Source: Stylophora pistillata (lineage: Eukaryota). Taken from it: a DNA stretch of 64,000 bases. This document shows positions 15,830-64,000 of this stretch, piece by piece. Both the position numbers and the translations under genes were made by a program. The stretch lies in assembly GCF_002571385.2 (NCBI RefSeq), contig NW_019217822.1, forward strand, positions 1 to 64,000. The letters are read 5' to 3'. The notes under the pieces are model-generated. The model did no database searches. It saw only the letters and a program-made list of their open reading frames with translations, and was not told the DNA's origin. The stretch's first letter is position 1. Each line of letters opens with the position of its first letter.

Positions 15830-15857
15830 GACAAGACAGATGGCGTACTTGGAATTT

Positions 15858-16960
15858 GTACGTTGATGACACGCCGGTTCACCATGTTTCACAGCAAAGA
15901 CAGTGCAAATGAGTTTTTGCACTATTTAAACAACTGTCATAGCAATATTAAATTTACCATTGAATTTGAACAGAATAATGCAATTCCTTTTTTGGACATT
16001 CTTGTCACACGTAATCAAAACAACACTTTCATGACATCCATCTACCGAAAGAAAACTTCCACAGGTCTCTACTCGAAATGGGATTCCTTCACCTCACGAA
16101 AGTACAAAATAAACGTCATCCGCTCCCTCACTTATCTCTACTACCGTCTTTGTTGGTCTGGCTCCTTGCTACAATCTGCCCTCAATGATCTTCGAAAACT
16201 CCTTCTTCAGAACGGCTACCCACAAGGCATATTCAACTGTCGTATCAACGATGTGTTGAACAAAAACAGACATCAGCATAACATCCCATTGTCTACAGTT
16301 CCTAAGAAAGATACTGACCATCCCACTTCTCTACTTAGGTTTGCAAAGCAACCAAGTCGCCAAACGCCTGAAATCATGTGTACAAATTCTATTCTTTTGT
16401 TAACTTGAAAATCGTTTTTCAGAACACTCGATGCATAAAATCTTTCTTTCCTTACAAGGACCGTATTAATCGTTCACAACAATCCAGGGTTATTTACAAA
16501 GCAAATTGCTGGGATTGTAATGGTTGTTACATTGGTAAAACTAAACGACGACTTCACGATAGAAAAACCGAACATTTTAAGGCCTTTGCTAAAAATGACA
16601 ATACTTCAGCCATTGCCGACCACATCAAGGCCACTGAACATAATATCAAGTGGGATCATTTTGATATTTTTGCAAAGGGCAAAACAGACTATCATTGTAA
16701 AATCAAAGAGTCCTTACTTATTCAAGAACTTGAGCCAGCTTTCAACGTGAACGTCGGAAGTGAAAAGCTGTTGCTTTATTAATCTGCTCCAGTGTTACTA
16801 GTTATTGTTAAGTTTTTTGCTGAATCTTGGTTCCAGTCCGCTCACCTTAGTTACATATATACATAGCTGTTTTAAATTTCAACCGTTACTTTTGAAAATG
16901 TATGTGGAGTACATACGAAACGTCAAGTCATAATCAAAATGTGCAAGTTCAATATGTTAA
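15858..16960 (+). mobile_element. Penelope-like retroelement, 5'-truncated (RT C-terminal half plus GIY-YIG endonuclease), frameshifted
   Basis: YVDDT then IKFTIEFEQNNAIPFLDILV, IYRKKT, LLQNGYP. GIY-YIG region: VIYKANCWDCNGCYIGKTKRRLHDRKTEH...SAIADH...IKESLLI...PAFN. Hammerhead motif in the 3' UTR. Confidence 0.92.
16888..16928 (+). ncRNA. Minimal type I hammerhead ribozyme, U3-A8 core variant
   Basis: Stem I ACTT/AAGT; core TTGAAAA-T; stem II GTATGT/ACATAC; GAAA; CG; cleavage triplet GTC. Confidence 0.7.
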
Positions 16961-31934: not shown

Positions 31935-32144
31935 TAAACCTTTAACTCCCAAACTCTGATTGCTCATTCTCCCCTCTAGCTGCTACACACTGTCTTCTAA
32001 ATTGAATTCAAGAATTTGTTGTTACATCAAGATAACTTTAACCTGATAAGTTAGAGTATTCTTAAATTTATACCTGATTGCTGGATATATGGTTATTGTA
32101 AGGAGAAGCTACATGTTAATCACTTTTGGGAGTTACAGGGTTAA
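31935..32144. mobile_element. MITE with TTAA-CCCT...AGGG-TTAA-type (piggyBac-like) ends, family B
   Basis: AACCTTTAACTCCCAA ... TTGGGAGTTACAGGGTTAA. Related copies at ~34630-34830 (reverse), 52071-52425, ~58990-59180 and ~370-520. Confidence 0.65.
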
Positions 32145-35100
32145 AGACAGAAGTAATCAAACTTTTACTGTGTTTTGGTCTTTTATTCAATCAGGCTGCA
32201 CTGCTAGAATTTATTTGTCAAGTCAGATTACTTTAAAGAAAGTTTTATCCTGCATTACAGACCTATTTGAATCAAGAAAAAAATAACAATTTGCAAGAAT
32301 TTAAAGTTCCCTTGCTGTTTTAGTGAATCAGCATGTGAGAAAAATGTCCAGAGAAGAAGATGTTCATTCTCTCTGGCATAACTATTTAACTTGTGTTACA
32401 AACAAATGTTATTTTTGAAGGAGGAATACAAGGTTATCAGAGTTTTATTGTAATACTTGTTAAAGAGTCTGTGTAGTTTTAATTTATCCCTTGAGTTTCT
32501 TTTAAAAAAGTTTCCCTTATACGTTACAGTGAAAAAAAAAAAAAGAAAAAGAATGGGCAATTAAAATTTATGAGAAGAGGAATTTCTTTAGCTTATCTCA
32601 TTTTGTTTGGTATGTCTTGCATAGGCTTGTATGGTGGTAATTGAAATTTTGCCATACAGTACCATGTTGTCTGTGGCACACCAGACAAATAATTTCATGA
32701 GGTCTCTACAATACCAAAGCTTTTTTTTTTTTTTTTTTTGGGGGGGGGGGGGGTGGCAGCTAGCATTGATGAGTTCTTAGTGTTCCTGACCATACAAGGT
32801 ACATTGTATCCCTCCCAATCCTCCACTTTAGATTGACTGGCTGACTGACCAACTGTACTTACCTGGTCTCTAGAGCAATGAAATGTGCTATGTCCATCCC
32901 TGCACACCCCCCAACAAGTCGATGGTAAAGGGGGAGGGGAGGCACTGAGGTGGGTGAAAGGGTAGGGAGACTAAGGGATCAGAAGCCATTTTCACCTAGA
33001 GTTGTGATGAAAACATTTCCTTAGAAACGTTGCATGGTGCGAACAAGCAAAGTAACCCACGCTAACAAACACGGGACGTTGCCCTGCAGTTTTTCAAGAG
33101 TTCCAAGCTCCTGGATCGCTAGGAATTCGTTTCCTTTTGTCTGTACCCTTAAAAACTTCCTCCATCATAAGGATAATATTTGACTTCTTATATTGACATC
33201 GTGGTTTGGTGATTAGTCAATATCATGATGACAGCTGAGCGAAAAAAGAAAGAAGACGATTTAACTGAATATTTTCGTTTAGGAGTCTCGTTGATTTACC
33301 AAGAAAATTTCGTGACTTGCCACAAAGATTCCATTGACTAAACCGAGAGAGATCTGGGCAGGTTAGCTTCTATTCGTTTGGTTACAATCAGATTACAACC
33401 ACTTGTCACGTAAGTGACATTTCAACCCGGTAAATTTACACGGGGGCTTGGAATTTTTTTAGCAACTCTGAACCACCTAAAAAGATATATTACGAACTCG
33501 CAGAAAAAGCTGTAAAATGTGTCATTTGTTAGGCATCTTAATCTGGACGAGAACCCTCTTGAGTTCAATCATTCGTAATGAATTGTTCGCAAGTGGGAGT
33601 AGAGGTGAAAGCCGCTATTATTTAGGTAGAACACCTGGCTAACAATAAGCAATGGAACTTTCTCAACTACGTGGTTGAAACACACCTGCGGTTTTCATAC
33701 CAATAACTTATTTGGTAAATAGGTATAAGCTTTCTCACCAACTCATTAAATTTTAGAAGGAGCAATATTTCATCCATTGTCTCAGTTCTAAACAAGAAGA
33801 TAGGAACCACTCACTGGTTTTGATGGGGTTCGAAAATGCAAACTGGATTTTGTAAGATCTGCCACATGGACTTAAAGGGGGAGAATAGTTTTCCAAAAAA
33901 GAAAATTAGAGAAACCGATATCTTAATGTAGTGGACAACCTCAAAACACGAACTAAAGACACAGAAGTGAAAAAATATATCCCTCTCTAAGTTTTTGCTT
34001 GCATCACAGGAAATTTTGAACCACAAAAGTTTTCGCACCCTCTTTCTTTTTTAAGATTTATATGCTCGGGACGGTCTACCGCCTTCAAAACAAAACTTGA
34101 CCCTTTTATACCGCTATTTCCTAGCAACAGAAACGACACATGTTGATTTTTATGTTGTACTCTTACTATCTCAACCAGAAAATAGTTTCTTGAGGAAGAA
34201 AAGAGGAAGTGATTCAGCAGAAAAACCCTCGCACTACCTCTGATTTCAATTGGCTTCCTGTAAATAGAACCTCGATTTTCTTTCGGCTTTTGGAAGGCCA
34301 AAAAACTCACACAAATCCCAACCATCTGAAACACTTCTCGAAACCATGTCAGCAATGAAACTTCTCGATTAAAAGAAAGCGGATAGGTTAGAGTGGGTAT
34401 TTGACAGGAGCATTACCTGTAAGCGGATTGTGGTCAAAGATGGTTCATCGGCACTGTTTTGGGGGAATCTACGTAATGACACATGTATGATGTAAATGTT
34501 TTAGCACGTACCTAATAACTTGCCAAGGGCACCCACGCAAGCAAAGCGCGGGAGTTTTGCTGATGAGAGATTTTCGATCCCTAGCCAGGAGTGTGACAAG
34601 CCAAGGACGAAGGCTTGTCAGAGGGGGCTTAACTCCCAGAAGTGATTAACTTGTAATTTCTCCCTACATTGCCCTACACATTATCCAGCATACACTTTTG
34701 TCATGCGAATACTCAACTTTAACAGATAGAGGTTGTAACCTTTGATCTAACACCAAATTCTCGTAACTAATTTACAAAGAAATTTTTAGCAGCTAGAGGG
34801 GAGAATTCACAATCAGATCTTGGAGCTAAGATAAACTGGTCAAAAGAGAAAGCTGGTGACGCAATCTCATCAAGGAACAGCAATTTCTGACTAAACCAAC
34901 ACTTACCAAATCAAATATGGCACAAAATCAAGTCTACTAAAGCCTATGGGCTCACTCTCGCTGTAAGAGTCTGTAAAGTTATCGAGTGAGCAAAGAAACA
35001 AAAACATCGATAATGACGGAGAGAAAGCAAAGAGATAATCTTTATAGCTTCTTATAACGAGGGATATCCCTATTTTCGAATTTTTTGACCCAACAAAGGA

Positions 35101-39964: not shown

Positions 39965-41136
39965 GTTGGATTTCAACTCTACAGGCGAACTCCGCTGGCT
40001 TAACCGGTGCTACAGTCGTATGACCCAGATCACCCCGGTCAAAACACGGGCCTAATTAAAACTGGAAGGCCGCTTTTTGTCAGCAGATTTCCCAATTTTT
40101 ATCAGAAGATTCAGGGTTCCTGATAATAGTGAGATGTCGATCAGCCATTTTATTATGAACACTTTGGCTAATGGTCATTAATATGAGCGTAAGGTCCCTC
40201 TGGAATATCCATGTGTAGGACTTCAGGATCAAAGAACGGGAGTTCTTGTTTGAAATTTTGTATCTAGCCCCAAGAAGAAACTCGAACTTTTTTAACTCAA
40301 AAAAGACCACTGAGATAAAAGTTGTGAGGGCATTAGAACATTTCCTGTTGAAACAATACTGCATACTGGACTGAAATGCTATAACTGGAATGCATGAAGA
40401 ATGCATTTCTAATTGGATTACTAATACACTTTATATTCTATGAATATATGAAGTTCATATATTTTGAACTGCGGTATTAAATACGTATGCTGCACGATCC
40501 TTCGCAGTAGATAGCGCTATTTATGCAATAGCGAAAATCAGACCTAAAAAAAAAATCAGGCCTGTACGGGATTCGAACCACTGACCTCTGCGATACTAGT
40601 GCAGCGCTCTACCAATTGAACTAAAAGCCAACTGTGAGCAGGCCGTTAAGTTAATTCGTAATAAACCCGCGATGATTTATCATCACCATGATGATTTATC
40701 ATCGCCCGTGATGATTTATCATCNNNNNNNNNNNNNNNNNNNNNNNNNNNNNNNNNNNNNNNNNNNNNNNNNNNNNNNNNNNNNNNNNNNNNNNNNNNNN
40801 NNNNNNNNNNNNNNNNNNNNNNNNNNNNNNNNNNNNNNNNNNNNNNNNNNNNNNNNNNNNNNNNNNNNNNNNNNNNNNNNNNNNNNNNNNNNNNNNNNNN
40901 NNNNNNNNNNNNNNNNNNNNNNNNNNNNNNNNNNNNNNNNNNNNNNNNNNNNNNNNNNNNNNNNNNNNNNNNNNNNNNNNNNNNNNNNNNNNNNNNNNNN
41001 NNNNNNNNNNNNNNNNNNNNNNNNNNNNNNNNNNNNNNNNNNNNNNNNNNNNNNNNNNNNNNNNNNNNNNNNNNNNNNNNNNNNNNNNNAGCGCTATTTA
41101 TGCAATAGCGAAAATCAGACCTGAAAAAAAAAAATC

Positions 41137-41209
41137 AGGCCTGTACGGGATTCGAACCACTGACCTCTGCGATACTAGTGCAGCGCTCTACCAATTGAGC
41201 TAACAAGCC
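41137..41209 (-). tRNA. tRNA-Thr(AGT)-like sequence, probably a pseudo-tRNA
   Basis: GGCTTGTTAGCTCAATTGGTAGAGCGCTGCACTAGTATCGCAGAGGTCAGTGGTTCGAATCCCGTACAGGCCT. Acceptor and D stems pair, A and B boxes are intact, the T-stem is mismatched, and an oligo-T follows. Confidence 0.5.
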
Positions 41210-41388
41210 AACTGGGAGCAGGCCGTTAAGTTGATTCGTAATAAACCCGTGATGATAAATCAGATACAATGAATATATGAAGTTCATATATTTTGAACTG
41301 CGGTATTAAATACGTATGATGCACGATCCTTCGCAGTAGATAGCGCTATTTATGCAATAGCGAAAATCAGACCTGAAAAAAAAAAATC

Positions 41389-41461
41389 AGGCCTGTACGG
41401 GATTCGAACCACTGACCTCTGCGATACTAGTGCAGCGCTCTACCAATTGAGCTAACAAGCC
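41389..41461 (-). tRNA. tRNA-Thr(AGT)-like repeat copy
   Basis: Same sequence as 41137-41209. Confidence 0.5.
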
Positions 41462-41637
41462 AACTGGGAGCAGGCCGTTAAGTTGATTCGTAATAAACCC
41501 GTGATGATAAATCAGATACAATGAATATATGAAGTTCATATATTTTGAACTGCGGTATTAAATACGTATGATGCACGATCCTTCGCAGTAGATAGCGCTA
41601 TTTATGCAATAGCGAAAATCAGACCTGAAAAAAAATC

Positions 41638-41710
41638 AGGCCTGTTCGGGATTCGAACCGCTGACCTCTGCGATACCAGTGCAGCGCTCTACCAATTGAG
41701 CTAACAAGCC
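41638..41710 (-). tRNA. tRNA-Thr(GGT)-like repeat copy
   Basis: Variant copy with anticodon loop CT-GGT-AT. Confidence 0.45.
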
Positions 41711-41865
41711 AACTGTGAGCAGGCCGTTAAGTTGATTCGTTATAAACCCGTGATGATAAATCATCACGGGCGATGATAAATCATCACGGGCGATGATAAA
41801 TCATCATGGTGATGATAAATCATCGCGGGTTTATTACGAATTAACTTAACGGCCTGCTCACAGTT

Positions 41866-41937
41866 GGCTTTTAGTTCAATTGGTAGAGCGCTGCACTAGT
41901 ATCGCAGAGGTCAGTGGTTCGAATCCCGTACAGGCCT
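41866..41937 (+). tRNA. Inverted, degenerate tRNA-Thr(AGT)-like repeat copy
   Basis: GGCTTTTAGTTCAATTGGTAGAGC...GGTTCGAATCCC followed by a T run; 1-nt deletion in the acceptor stem. Confidence 0.4.
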
Positions 41938-42368
41938 GATTTTTTTTTTTCAGGTCTGATTTTCGCTATTGCATAAATAGCGCTATATACTGCGAAGGAT
42001 CGTGCATCATACACACTTTATATTGTGCAATAAGTTTTGTTTGAAATGTGGAGTTGAGCAAAATAATGTTGTCTTGTAACTATTTGAAACTTTCTGGAAT
42101 AAGTTAATTCTGATCCGAACTTTTGGGGAAAAGGCTTTCTCAGGACGTGATAACAAAGAGAAATATAACGCTTTGAAAATATATCAATATCAGACAAAGT
42201 CTTCATTTTTTAATAACTTTAGCTGACTTAGTGTCATGTCAATTCTTTGGTCTGTCCACTCTAAAATTCACACACACGTCTTGAATGGACTTCAGCCGCG
42301 CTCAAAAACTGTAACCAATTACACTCTACGAGCACCTAAACACAGTGCTTCGTTGAATTATTCTCCTC

Positions 42369-50731: not shown

Positions 50732-52230
50732 TCATCTTATGACCAGATCTTTGACAATAAAAATAGCTTCACAGTCACTCCCACTTAACAAGTGTGTTGA
50801 TTTGATATCTAGCGTGTTGATTGACAGTCTGTTATATGGGAGAAGAGAGAATGTCTCCATTTTATGTTTTGTAGCATCGACCGATAACCAAGGACTTGTA
50901 CTGTCATATCCTCCCCCAGCACCTGCACCATTGCCAATACTGCTGAGGTGACTTGAATTAAAACCGGGCATGGCTGTGGTGCTCTGGACAGCCACAGAGG
51001 CTCCATCCCAGTGCCAGAGAGATCCATCTTCAGAACATGTGAATAAGTTGTCTGGGCTTAGAGGGTGAAATTTCACATCCCATACTGATAAAAAAAACAA
51101 CAACAACATGAATGACCACTTCAAGTTTGAAAAGTGTCAACCCACTTGCATGCAAACTTTGATGTCTTAAACTTCTCTTTTGATCACACCTGACTATAGC
51201 TCTGAGCTGAAAAAAGGAGAACTTTGGTGCCTTTTAGCATCAAAAGTCACTAATTTAGCAACCTGTGTTCCATGGCTGTAGAGCAAGTATTTTACAATAT
51301 TTATGTGTTTACATCCCGCACAAAATACAATTTACAAAACAAAACCAACTTTCTGCTTGGTTTCGTCAAGATGAAGCCTTCAGACTTCACATTAATCTCC
51401 AGTCCCTCCATTTTTAGAAAGCAGTGTAGCATGACACCTCTTGGGCAGTTTGCACATTACAGACAGGTGCAGTAACTGATGCCCACAAAACAATAGCTTC
51501 TGAAATTTTCAGTAGCAGTCAAAAAGCCTCTATGTTCTGGCAATTCAGATTATGTAATTTGCTTGAGAGGATAACAAAACTTGGAAAGGGTGCCTAACCT
51601 TCTGCAGCATGCGCTTCCAGTAATGTGACAGGATACAGTTCTTGGCGCATGTCCCAAATACTCAGTACACCATCCTGACCTCCTGCTGCAAGTAGGTGTG
51701 GCTGTGTTGGGTGTTTGTCAACACACAGCAGTGAGACACGGTCGCCAGAACTATACACAAAATATTGTGCAATTGTTATATTTTAAAGTTTGGTAGCAGT
51801 TTGACTCAATTTTATTTAAAAAGTATTGCAGCCTCTAGCACAGCCTGGGTACCTTGTTTTCCCAGAAGCACAGCTTTGATCACAACAAGTTTTAGATGTT
51901 TTTTTCTATTCTTGGACAAGGAATGTTATTTTCAGTATTTCTTTTCTTTAGCAAAACAAAGCAAAGTAACAATAAATCATCAACAAATAGGTCAGTTTTA
52001 ATCCCCTCAAGGAGGATTAAAAACTGACCTTAATTAACTCTAAATAAATCATATCCTCTAAAATCAGTGTTTAACTCCCAAGATCTGACTGACAACTCTC
52101 TCCTTCAGCCGCTACACATTCCCTTGTGAGTAGGTTACAAGAATTTGGTGTTAGATTAGGATAACAACTCCTCCCTGATAAAGGCTGATAGTTTCTAAAG
52201 AAACTGTTTGGGGCTGCATCAGTGTGGGTA

Positions 52231-52261
<31 letters not shown>

Positions 52262-55200
52262 AATAATCGTAACGGTGGCCAATTTACCATTTCAACTTTG
52301 TTGATATATTCAAATTATTCCTCCCTGATAAGTTTGAGTATGCTCAGTACCTACTTTGTTGGAGAATGTGTGGTTCTCATGGGAAGAAGTGTGATGTTAA
52401 ACACTTCTGGGAACTGAAGAATTAACTAACACTCACAGTAACATTGTTCTTCCAGGCTTACTCCCAGGTTGTCGAAGATCCCAAACTTTAAGCTGACCAC
52501 CGAATGTTACAGCAGCCACTTCATGCGACATTATACATGTAATACTGTTTATAGTTGTGCTGTCTGCAGAATCTAGAAAAGTATTTTAAAGAAAATTAAA
52601 GAAAATTTATTAGAGGATCAATGCTAACCCAACAGAAATGATTGAACCTTCAATAAAATCTTGAAAAGCCTGAAGTCTTAGGATTTCGTTTTGAAAGGGT
52701 TCTTCGACTTGCTGAGATACATTTGTGTTTGAGAAGTTGAATTTTACCACAATTAGCCATTTTCTAAATGAGCGGCAGTCTGGGTATGATTTGCCACCAC
52801 AAAGGCTCTTGGGATGGTTTGGAGGGACAACATGAAGGTAAAGAAACATGGTGCACTATAACTGCTGTATTCCAGGCTGCACTAATAGTTACAGAAATGC
52901 ACCTAACCTTCAGTATTATAGAATTCCTAAAGACCCTAGAAATATATACCTAGAAAGTATGTGGTTCTTATGAAGAATGAGACGTTGAAATTAGACTCTA
53001 CGAGTACACAGATTTGCTCAGCTCATTTTGATGGAGGAGAAAAACTTAGCAGAACAGGCTTGCCTCCAATTTTTCCATGGACAAAACCGACAGCTCCACG
53101 TAGAGAACTCAAGAGGGCCAGTTTTGAAGATACGCAGAAAATGGAGCAAACCAAAAAAAGGAAAACAACACTTGCTCAGTTACCACTGGAAGTGAACTTT
53201 AAATTTGAAGAACAGTTGGAAAATAATAATGTTAACATTAATACTGGTGTCAGCATTAATATCAATATTAATGCTGACACTAGTACCAGCGTGTAAATAC
53301 AAACATTACTTACTGGTGACCAACTAAACAGTTTATATAACAGAATACAAACAAGTGAACAAGAAATTGTTAAGCTAATCGGTGAGATGGAGGAGTGGGA
53401 GAAGGAAAACAACAACATCAAAGAGGTGAACAGCAAATTACAACAGTGGTAATTTGAGCAATTTGAGCAATTTGAGCAAGTGTTGTTGTTTTTTTTTTTG
53501 GTTTGCTCCATTTTCTACACATATTTGAAACTGGCCCTCTTGAGTTCTCTACGTGGAGCTGTCGGTTTGTCCATGGAAAAATTGAAGGCAAGTGTGTTCT
53601 ACTAAGTTTTTCTCCTCCATTGAAATGAGCTGAGAAAATCCACGTACTCGTAGAGTCTAATTTCAGCGTCTCGTTCCTCATAAGAACCACGTACTTTCTA
53701 CGTATATCAGGGTCTTTAGGAATTCTATAACACTGAAGGTTAGGTGCATTTCTTTAACTATTGGTACAGCCTGGAATACAGCAGTTATAGTGCGCCCTGT
53801 TTGTTTACCTTCACGTTGTTACTCCAAACGATCCCAAGAGCCCTTATGGTGGCAAATCATACCCAGACCGCTGCTCGTTTAGAAAATGGCTAATTGGAAG
53901 TAATGTTGCTGTCTCATTGGCCAATTCGCTGCTGCAGATAAGAGTACAGACAACACTGCTTGAGTCAATGGATCATGTACTGAAAGAGTTGTTTTAGTTG
54001 ATGTTGATATTATGGTAAAAAGCAAATTGACAGTGGTTCAGCATGGTCTGTACTTTCATCTGCAATGATATTCGTCCTTACTGCAGTTGAAATTTGTTGT
54101 GGACTCACTTGGTTGTACCTCATGAGTGCACGATATTTTGACCACTCAGATGACCAATATCACTGTCAATAAGAGAACAGACTACAAATGTTGACTTGTT
54201 TAACAGAAAGAGGCACATAACCAGCCCCTGAGATTTAAAACTTTTTGAAAATTTGTAATAACCCCATACACCATGCATACTGAGGGGTACTACAAGCTCC
54301 CTTAGAACAACTTGCAAATTTAACATAAGATGTCAGAATTTCTATGCAAAAAGAAAAGTATACTTTAAAATCACTAGTCCAACAGAAATACCTCTTACTA
54401 ACCACATTCAGTGTCTGTACTGGAAGTTACAGACCAAAAATTTCTGCTTGGATTTATAGGCCACATGCTTTGTGCCAGGTTCCATAGCTTACAGTGCAGA
54501 CAGAGAAAACAAGGATAGCAAGATATATATTAAATCTCAATAGAAAAAAAAACAAAACAAAACAAAAAAAACAAATCTTTGAATTTAACAAGCCACACAG
54601 TAAAATATGGCCAGTTGACCAATCATGTGTGTAATAAGACATAATAGGGTGCATTAGTTCCAATCTTCACTGTATGAACTACATGGTGTCGTTGTTGAAT
54701 GACAATTGTACTTGGCTGGTTCGATATTTGTATATTTTAATCACTTTATTCGCTCGCGATACTCCAAAACTCAACTCGACTCACTGTTGAAAAACACAAG
54801 GCCATGCCCATAGCAATGAACCGACCTGTCAATTCACATAGCAACGCAAAAATAAATAGACAAATAAATGTACAGGAAGCAGGAAGGACACATGGCTTGA
54901 CTTTACATTATAGAAATAAAAGTCAGTGGTATTGTAGAAGCATCTAGATGCAGATAGTACTAAGGAGAACTACATGGCTTGACTTTACATTATAGAAATA
55001 AAAGTCAGTGGTATTGTAGAAGCATCTAGATGCAGATAGTACTGAGGAGAACTACATGGCTTGACTTTACATTATTGAAATAAAAGTCAGTGGTATTGTA
55101 GAAGCATCTAGATGCAGATAGTACTGAGGAGAACTAGATGGCTTGACTTTACATTATAGAAATAAAAGTCAATGGTTTTGTACAAGCATCTAGATGCAGA

Positions 55201-63866: not shown

Positions 63867-64000
63867 GTATGCACATTTTGTACATTTTAATAAATCAAAG
63901 CAATATGCATTTTATGAACTTTTTATCCAAAATGGCTACAATTTTGTCATTCTTCAATTTTATGCTTTGGTCCCCCTTAACCTAAGATATGTCTTCAACC

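What the first reader, a model, noticed from the sequence alone, without database searches (positions are those of the whole stretch)
52169..52331. Hammerhead mini-element caught inserting: 13-bp TSD and inverted segment
A 137-bp insert splits a MITE and is flanked by an exact TCCTCCCTGATAA duplication, direct evidence that it moved. Compared with the copy at 63567-63710, its first part (AGTTTCTAAAGAAACTG...GCTGC) is the reverse complement of that copy's 3' part (GCAGC...GTTTAGAAACT), and the rest is the hammerhead-onward segment in forward orientation. This fits target-primed reverse transcription with inversion of a non-coding ribozyme RNA (retrozyme-like), plausibly using Penelope machinery such as that at 15858-16960.
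Basis: partly seen in the sequence, partly recalled or inferred. Interest (0 to 1): 0.7.

Follow-up and report, generated by a model that had tools for sequence, protein, structure and literature searches.

The report
Twin-primed stub of a Penelope element
This 137-base insert is a tiny, truncated copy of a very common Penelope-like jumping gene in a coral genome, not a separate ribozyme element; its two back-to-back halves meet without overlap, which likely records the element copying its RNA from both cut DNA strands and joining the two copies.

Summary
In detail: a 137-bp insert with an exact 13-bp target duplication sits in a ~205-bp MITE whose 14 fetched paralogs carry no such insert. It is not a retrozyme. 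Both halves come from the end (pseudo-LTR plus 'tail') of a protein-coding RT + GIY-YIG Penelope-like family, with 3,352 exact 40-mer matches in this coral genome. The Penelope at 15.8-16.9 kb is a different family. The hammerhead is beheaded in this copy, the insert spans the predicted cut site, and no monomer arrays were seen. An inverted arm with a one-sided tail is the described Penelope layout (34 of 39 classifiable head-to-head inserts; commonest TSD 13 bp). The unusual part is that the arms divide the template exactly at the tail boundary and join through 5 shared bases. That join occurs at 9 sites on 5 subfamily haplotypes, so it likely re-forms independently. A fold-back of one cDNA cannot make it; two separately primed cDNAs can. 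'Caught inserting' is overstated: the insert is present in 4 of 4 other runs. This scan has proposed twin-primed Penelope stubs before, on other genomes.

The parts
52169..52181 (+). left target-site duplication (13 bp); its last 4 bases (52178-52181) also match the element's tail, the predicted priming overlap
52182..52235 (-). tail arm: element positions +2 to +55 (0 = pLTR end), inverted relative to the other arm
52231..52235 (.). 5-base microhomology (ACGAA) shared by both arms at the inversion point (element -86..-82 against +2..+6)
52231..52318 (+). tail-less pLTR arm, element positions -86 to +1; carries the 3' part of a minimal type I hammerhead (stem II, GAAA, predicted cut between 52255 and 52256) but not the start of the core
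52319..52331 (+). right target-site duplication (13 bp); its first T is shared with the element
52063..52425 (+). host MITE (~205 bp without the insert; paralogs have ~18-bp terminal inverted repeats that begin with TTAA; ends decayed in this copy, limits approximate)
63536..63722 (+). copy of a related Penelope family (pLTR + tail, ~75% to the insert), bounded by a 9-bp direct repeat at 63536 and 63714, with a 22-bp piece before it; not the source of the insert
15830..16925 (+). decayed Penelope-like element of a different family with its own hammerhead-like end; not the parent

Best explanation
The insert is a severely 5'-truncated copy of a protein-coding Penelope-like retrotransposon (RT + GIY-YIG, Neptune/Nematis-type linker), likely made by twin priming: both strands of a 13-nt staggered cut primed reverse transcription, at the element's two fixed internal start sites, and the two cDNAs were joined head to head through 5 shared bases. 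Steps: (1) shown: parent family, TSD, arm positions and join; (2) inferred: the endonuclease cut both strands 13 nt apart, leaving 3' overhangs; (3) inferred: the + strand end paired by 4 bases with the end of the tail (+56..+59) and was extended through the tail, and the - strand end primed at the pLTR/tail boundary (+1/+2) and was extended through the pLTR; (4) inferred: the first cDNA ended at the second priming site, its terminal ACGAA annealed to TTCGT near the end of the second cDNA (most copies end at -100..-80), and host repair sealed the join; (5) the template spans the predicted hammerhead cut site, so it was not cleaved there, and the ribozyme likely played no part in making this copy.
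For: Parent: in long copies the same pLTR lies ~120 nt behind an ORF end. The ORF pieces hit RVT_1 (E 2.5e-6, 27.8 bits, under the 29.6 cut-off) and GIY-YIG (E 2.2e-5, 25.1 bits, over the 22.6 cut-off). In 4 long copies pLTR + tail continues into the ORF's 5' region, so the tail end is internal to the RNA. Two fixed 3' ends: 46 of 122 at -6..+9 and 69 of 122 at +55..+70, matching the two RT start sites that bracket the tail in vitro, where both strands are cut and extended (PMC11167929). One tailed plus one tail-less arm in 34 of 39 classifiable head-to-head inserts, against 19.4 expected if independent (chi2 22.2, p 2.5e-6). TSDs of 9 bp or more in 23 of those 34; 13 bp in 12 of all 31 TSDs. 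Against fold-back: the tail-less arm reaches 6 nt or more further 5' than the tailed arm in 15 of 34, and here the arms share only the 5-base join. The same join is at 9 distinct sites, on 5 haplotypes among the 7 with all four sites readable; 7 of the 9 have their own clear TSD of 9-16 bp. Other tail-only joins sit at other microhomologies, with TSDs (C135, C87, C167). The matched mid-tail control join (-81/+22, also 5 nt) has 0 copies against 8. The arms of one insert share subfamily in 26 of 30 and 31 of 34 cases (16.9 and 19.5 expected).
Against: In 34 of 34 sampled tailed + tail-less inserts the arms overlap. Simple one-RNA twin priming does not give that without strand displacement or a second RNA, so the clean partition seen here is the rare case. 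Arms disagree at a diagnostic site in 4 of 30 and 3 of 34 inserts. The overlap at the second priming site is only 1 base here. [quoted passage not shown] The -86/+2 homology grows to 6-7 nt in some variant copies, and the other near-boundary join (-77/+4) has only 1 copy, so the 8-to-0 contrast is not a clean test of a block at the second site. No gap-free full-length parent was seen (N gaps).
Confidence: 0.72

Rival explanations
1. Dual priming: two RNA molecules, for example one per subunit of a dimeric protein, are each primed at one nick, and the cDNAs are joined by microhomology. The exact partition at the tail boundary is then a by-product of where the microhomology happens to lie.
For: Arms overlap in 34 of 34 sampled inserts. 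Arms are discordant at diagnostic sites in 4 of 30 and 3 of 34 inserts. A dimer is predicted for the Anolis protein (PMC11167929). PMC2837659 says twin and dual priming could not be told apart in its L1 data.
Against: The arms of one insert are more alike (0.048, n=33) than arms of different inserts (0.067, n=1089; p 0.003) and mostly share subfamily. The strict one-tailed/one-tail-less pairing needs an added rule. The matched mid-tail join is absent.
Confidence: 0.15
2. One cDNA folds back on itself (self-priming, as proposed in PMC3846280) or switches template, and a later deletion removed the overlapping part to leave the short form.
For: Many ordinary copies are near-palindromes with arms of similar reach (10 of 34 within 5 nt). 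A 5-base repeat could guide a deletion from such a palindrome.
Against: A fold-back cannot give an inverted arm longer than the direct arm (15 of 34; L039 about -1930 against -460). Here it would need an extra deletion that ends at the same base at 9 sites.
Confidence: 0.08
3. One reading: a non-coding, self-cleaving mini-element (retrozyme-like) that spreads as its own RNA using a Penelope helper.
For: Short copies are the commonest class (63 of 105 5' ends at -100..-80), so some may be transcribed and mobilised in trans. Animal retrozymes are argued to derive from pLTRs (bioRxiv 10.64898/2026.07.22.740005).
Against: The sequence is the terminus of a coding element. Short and long copies have the same haplotype mix (GCTC 14 of 37 against 14 of 32; ATCA 9 of 37 against 8 of 32). 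No head-to-tail monomers in 80 regions. Only 2 of 105 5' ends fall at the predicted cut. The family core reads CCGA rather than CUGA in most copies (exactly CCGACGA in 48 of 63; CTGA in 3 of 63). The same-join copies do not share one haplotype.
Confidence: 0.05

Closest known systems
Insertion units of endonuclease-bearing Penelope-like elements (Adineta Pen2a, PMC3846280; general layout, PMC8557442)
   Same: pLTR with a minimal hammerhead, an adjacent inverted 5'-truncated arm, a tail on one end only, a TSD of variable length, partial tandems, and an RT + GIY-YIG ORF; the CX2-5CxxC linker is described for Neptune and Nematis.
   Different: The tail here is ~55-67 nt, not 30-40. In this copy the direct arm is the tail alone, so the arms do not overlap and there is no palindrome. 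The hammerhead core carries C at position 4 in most family copies.
Poseidon PAc of Anolis, in vitro (PMC11167929)
   Same: Two internal RT start sites bracket the tail, both target strands are cut and extended, and uncleaved RNA is the template.
   Different: Different clade. That paper does not assign one start site to each strand or describe how the cDNAs are joined, and it reports no homology at the priming site, whereas 4 bases match at the tail end here.
L1 twin priming (as described in PMC2837659)
   Same: TSDs bound two inverted fragments of one element; the second priming is internal; the inner join can show microhomology.
   Different: There is no poly(A): both priming sites are internal and fixed. 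Inversion is the commonest class here rather than a variant. Most family copies have overlapping arms rather than an internal deletion.
Animal non-LTR retrozymes (PMC7229834; bioRxiv 10.64898/2026.07.22.740005)
   Same: Type I hammerhead-related sequence, occurrence in corals, a link to Penelope pLTRs, TSDs longer than 4 bp.
   Different: No tandem monomers, a minimal rather than canonical hammerhead, a core that is broken in this copy, a coding parent, and ends that do not fall at the cut site.

Membership tests
EN+ Penelope-like element | [quoted passage not shown] | tested here: met
   L039 carries RT motifs, then the nuclease, then the pLTR in one locus (with a 135-N gap and frame breaks). 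Pfam RVT_1 just under cut-off, GIY-YIG over cut-off in 1 of 2 pieces.
EN+ Penelope-like element | pLTR formed by partial tandem: the same sequence behind the ORF and ahead of it | tested here: met
   Behind the ORF in L018, L019, L028; ahead of it in L179, L184, L190, L193.
EN+ Penelope-like element | Inverted 5'-truncated arm and a tail on one end only | tested here: met
   34 of 39 classifiable head-to-head inserts, from 83 sampled; also the window insert.
EN+ Penelope-like element | TSD of variable length | tested here: met
   9-17 bp in 31 of 83, commonest 13. On flanks alone, 15 of 83 real pairs and 0 of 408 shuffled pairs reach 9 bp.
EN+ Penelope-like element | Minimal hammerhead motif in the pLTR | tested here: met
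   Stem I, stem II, GAAA and a palindromic stem III region in whole copies (folding z -1.5, not significant by itself). Position 4 is C in most copies; activity was not tested.
Neptune/Nematis clades | CX2-5CxxC linker between RT and endonuclease | tested here: met
   C-x4-C-x2-C in L039 and L124; motif as described in PMC8557442.
Neptune/Nematis clades | Placement by RT phylogeny | not tested
   No reference PLE proteins were fetched.
Animal non-LTR retrozyme | Head-to-tail repeats of a 150-450 bp monomer | tested here: not met
   In 80 regions only 2 same-strand neighbours were found, both pieces of one long copy.
Animal non-LTR retrozyme | Intact canonical type I hammerhead | tested here: not met
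   No Rfam hit; core truncated in the insert; CTGA in only 3 of 63 sampled cores.
Animal non-LTR retrozyme | Non-coding, with no ORF in the element | tested here: not met
   Continuous with an RT-GIY-YIG ORF.
Animal non-LTR retrozyme | Expressed as self-cleaved linear and circular monomers | tested here: inconclusive
   3 RNA runs show no piled ends, and no circle-sized back-joint among the 15 joints shown of 67. These are fragmented libraries that would miss small or circular RNA.
L1-type twin priming | Two inverted, non-overlapping fragments of one template inside a TSD, with microhomology at the inner join | tested here: met
   Met for this insert and about 13 others found by targeted searches; not met for 34 of 34 sampled ordinary inserts, whose arms overlap.
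L1-type twin priming | First priming on a 3' poly(A) tail | tested here: not met
   The tail end is internal and continues into the ORF's 5' region.

The most novel reading that the evidence does not exclude
Penelope-like elements insert by programmed twin priming on one RNA, with each nick assigned its own start site. The 'tail' is then simply the stretch between the two sites. The rare tail-only inversions, such as this one, are the products in which the first reverse transcriptase was stopped by the second, and so they map the second site to the base. This would give one mechanism for the inverted pLTR, the one-sided tail and the TSD.
Probability: 0.45. Interest if true: 0.6.

Novelty: new member of a known kind. 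Interest (0 to 1): 0.33.

Why it matters
The element is ordinary: one of thousands of Penelope stubs. Its value is as a clean natural product. How Penelope-like elements make their inverted ends and one-sided tail is unsettled: PMC3846280 proposes self-priming, PMC8557442 endonuclease resolution, and PMC11167929 leaves the later steps open. Inserts whose arms share no sequence exclude a simple fold-back and define a direct test with the existing in vitro system.

Tried and rejected
- Retrozyme, a self-propagating inverted mini-element, and the window's Penelope as helper: all rejected (see rivals).
- Rfam at gathering score gave only tRNA-like hits. Pfam found nothing for the window's Penelope pieces.
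- Ribozyme cleavage as the source of 5' ends: 2 of 105 ends at -65..-58, so not supported in this family.
- Polymorphism: no joint skipping exactly 150 bases among the 15 shown of 30, in 4 contig sets. The skips shown (153-173) look like paralogous MITEs. Contigs show presence, not absence.
- RNA: reads lie in both directions about equally, 85-86% run on into unlike sequence, and depth falls below 20 past the tail. This fits passive read-through in host transcripts but says nothing about small RNA.
- One search listed 64 tail starts followed by a non-A base; all 64 were viewed. 53 were ordinary contiguous copies with a point change and 11 were true breaks.
- Left out of the 9-site count: the second C515 copy (shares a flank with the first) and C34 (join ~12 nt shorter). 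In the control joins, L242 belongs to a related family and L244 is a compound locus.
- In one search I read the wrong diagnostic column (-6); it was corrected to -7.
- A look-up of earlier findings by sequence found nothing.

Full report
Observation. The 13-mers at 52169-52181 and 52319-52331 are identical and cannot be extended, with 137 bp between them. Without the insert and one copy, the flanks form a ~205-bp repeat whose paralogs have terminal inverted repeats starting with TTAA. In the alignment of 14 genomic and 3 window paralogs the homologous site is present once, and 14 of 14 genomic paralogs lack an insert. The nearest paralogs are 82-87% alike over the left part, while the insert's forward arm matches relatives at 97-99%, so the insert is likely younger than its host. 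The site lies between two exon-like frames of a minus-strand WD40-type gene (the resemblance is recalled, not searched). Several runs holding the stretch are labelled coral metagenome.

What the insert is made of. I number from the end of the pseudo-LTR (pLTR), where 0 is the last A of AAATTA. The insert is a reversed arm +2..+55 followed by a forward arm -86..+1. In ordinary copies the two pieces are contiguous, so nothing is lost or repeated at the +1/+2 break. The arms share ACGAA at the inner join. The left TSD's last four bases also match +56..+59, and the right TSD's first base matches +2. The copy at 63567 is a related family at ~75%.

The parent. A 40-mer from the pLTR end has 3,352 exact matches in the 397.6-Mb genome, and 0 for the reversed control. 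In long copies the pLTR follows an ORF end by ~120 nt. L039 carries RT motifs, a C-x4-C-x2-C linker and a GIY-YIG nuclease ahead of it. Pfam gives RVT_1 at 27.8 bits (cut-off 29.6) and GIY-YIG at 25.1 and 21.5 bits (cut-off 22.6). Coverage falls steadily towards the 5' end. Of 18 long 5' regions inspected, 4 have pLTR + tail running on into the ORF's front, which includes a GT...AG intron-like stretch; 2 more of a related family do the same. So the tail end is internal to the element. The linker points to Neptune or Nematis (PMC8557442); no tree was built. The window's Penelope at 15830-16925 is another family: no DNA match to the insert at E 0.05, 18 of 41 identical residues in the nuclease core only, no such linker in its translation, and its own hammerhead-like end.

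Family survey. I fetched 80 regions covering 91 of the first 100 listed matches (of 3,352), all on contigs C1-C4. They hold 83 inserts; two pairs share flanks and may be duplicates, and 19 touch N gaps. Classes: head-to-head with one tailed and one tail-less arm 34, both tailed 4, both tail-less 1, head-to-head with one odd end 5, single arm 39. 3' ends fall at -6..+9 (46 of 122) or +55..+70 (69 of 122). 5' ends fall at -100..-80 in 63 of 105, and at the predicted ribozyme cut in 2 of 105. Adjacent TSDs of 9-17 bp were found in 31 of 83, 13 bp in 12 of them. On flanks alone, 15 of 83 real pairs and 0 of 408 shuffled pairs reach 9 bp. The window insert therefore has the commonest layout and the commonest TSD length, and is only extreme in how short its tailed arm is.

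The join recurs. The same -86/+2 join is at 9 distinct sites: the window, C3, C92, C119, C331, C431, C515, C951 and C4104. Seven have a clear TSD of their own (13, 13, 12 with 1 mismatch, 11, 16, 14 and 9 bp); C331's is degenerate and C4104 has none. The 7 with four readable diagnostic sites fall on 5 haplotypes, all of which occur among ordinary copies, so the form likely arises afresh rather than spreading as a unit. Tail-only arms also join at other short homologies: -216 region (C135), -43/+12 (C87), -77/+4 (C167), and -36 with 2 shared bases (C743), each with a TSD. Exact 21-mer counts were 8 for this join, and 0, 1, 2 and 1 for -81/+22, -69/+33, -43/+12 and -77/+4. The -69 hit is a related family and one -43 hit is compound. 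RNA reads also hold a joint within one base of this join (91, 58 and 20 reads).

Mechanism. The pairing of one tailed with one tail-less arm is far from independent (34 of 39, 19.4 expected, p 2.5e-6). The tail-less arm outreaches the tailed arm in 15 of 34, which a fold-back of one cDNA cannot give, and in the window insert the arms share only the join. I infer two separately primed cDNAs, one from each strand of a 13-nt staggered cut, joined by microhomology. This fits the in vitro finding that a Poseidon protein cuts and extends both strands, starts at two internal sites bracketing the tail, and uses uncleaved RNA (PMC11167929). One RNA is favoured by the exact partition here and by subfamily agreement between arms (26 of 30 and 31 of 34; 16.9 and 19.5 expected). 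Against it, 34 of 34 sampled pairs overlap, which needs strand displacement or a second RNA, and about one in ten pairs disagree. The pile-up of 5' ends at -100..-80 may mark the RNA's start; that is untested.

The hammerhead. Whole copies fold into the minimal type I shape (z -1.5, weak alone), the kind described in Penelope pLTRs with low activity in vitro (PMC4209133). In this family the core is exactly CCGACGA in 48 of 63 copies and has CTGA in 3. PMC3088659 notes that a U4C variant loses much activity in vitro yet can suffice in a viroid. The insert lacks the start of the core and spans the predicted cut. No monomer arrays were seen, and three RNA runs show no piled ends (not small-RNA libraries). 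The retrozyme definition (PMC7229834) is not met.

Age. Locus-specific contigs run from the left flank into the insert in 4 of 4 runs from 2 studies, and from the right flank in 2 of 4; no clean empty allele is among the joints shown. The insert differs from its nearest sampled contiguous copies at 6-7 positions. It is young but established, not caught in the act.

What was read. PMC11167929: parts 1-2 of 4 (main text and start of methods). bioRxiv 10.64898/2026.07.22.740005: part 1 of 5 (abstract, introduction, start of methods). PMC3846280, PMC4209133, PMC8557442, PMC7229834, PMC3088659 and PMC2837659: passages around search terms. No supplements were read; those of PMC11167929 (Figs S1-S2) may bear on priming homology. 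Searches for twin priming with Penelope listed 3 and 5 papers, and I saw no such proposal in what I read. The library lacks most subscription journals, so this is no proof that it is unpublished. The twin-priming reading was recorded before the look-up of earlier findings; one search then showed that this scan reached it on several other genomes. Those notes are unchecked and not counted as support.

Verdict. A real insert of a known kind, and not a retrozyme. It is useful as the non-overlapping limit case that argues for two-strand priming in Penelope-like elements.

Noticed in passing
family-wide; e.g. L011:1490-1535: The family's minimal hammerhead has C instead of U at core position 4 in most copies (CCGACGA in 48 of 63), while a related family keeps CTGA, yet the family reached thousands of copies. 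This hints that cleavage is dispensable or works differently.
   Followed up: partly
L193:1422-1502; also L175, L178, L184, L190: A GT...AG intron-like stretch of ~80 nt is retained in the 5' part of long copies. Some copies (L174, L187, L134) match the family only from about its 3' splice site onward.
   Followed up: no
L039 (G000:C251:141500-147500): The same two-arm layout at large scale: a tail-less arm of ~1.9 kb carrying the ORF, head to head with a tailed arm of ~0.5 kb.
   Followed up: partly
L218 (G000:C787) and L150 (G000:C65): Tail-only inserts with no second arm; L218 has a 13-bp TSD with one mismatch.
   Followed up: no
window 63536-63722: The related-family copy is bounded by a 9-bp direct repeat, and a 22-bp piece before it begins like a short inverted pLTR end; its hammerhead core has G8 changed to A.
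   Followed up: partly
window 40435-42022: Cluster of ~250-bp tRNA-like repeats, in tandem and inverted (5 Rfam tRNA hits); earlier notes on this genome describe a tRNA-bearing Penelope-type unit.
   Followed up: no
window 52750-53896: Large nested inverted repeat (arms of 188, 142 and 76 nt, 89-92%) just downstream, probably a fold-back element.
   Followed up: no
window 54810-55311 and 55902-57757: Tandem arrays with 82-bp and 89-bp periods, and a 300-bp exact duplicate 596 bp apart that may be an assembly artefact.
   Followed up: no
window 31941-32144, 34634-34829, 58988-59165: Three more copies of the host TTAA-ended MITE.
   Followed up: partly
window 51608-51740 and 52457-52540 (- strand); 63770-63868 (+ strand): Exon-like frames of a WD40-type gene around the insert, and an exon-like frame of another gene next to the second copy (names not searched).
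   Followed up: no
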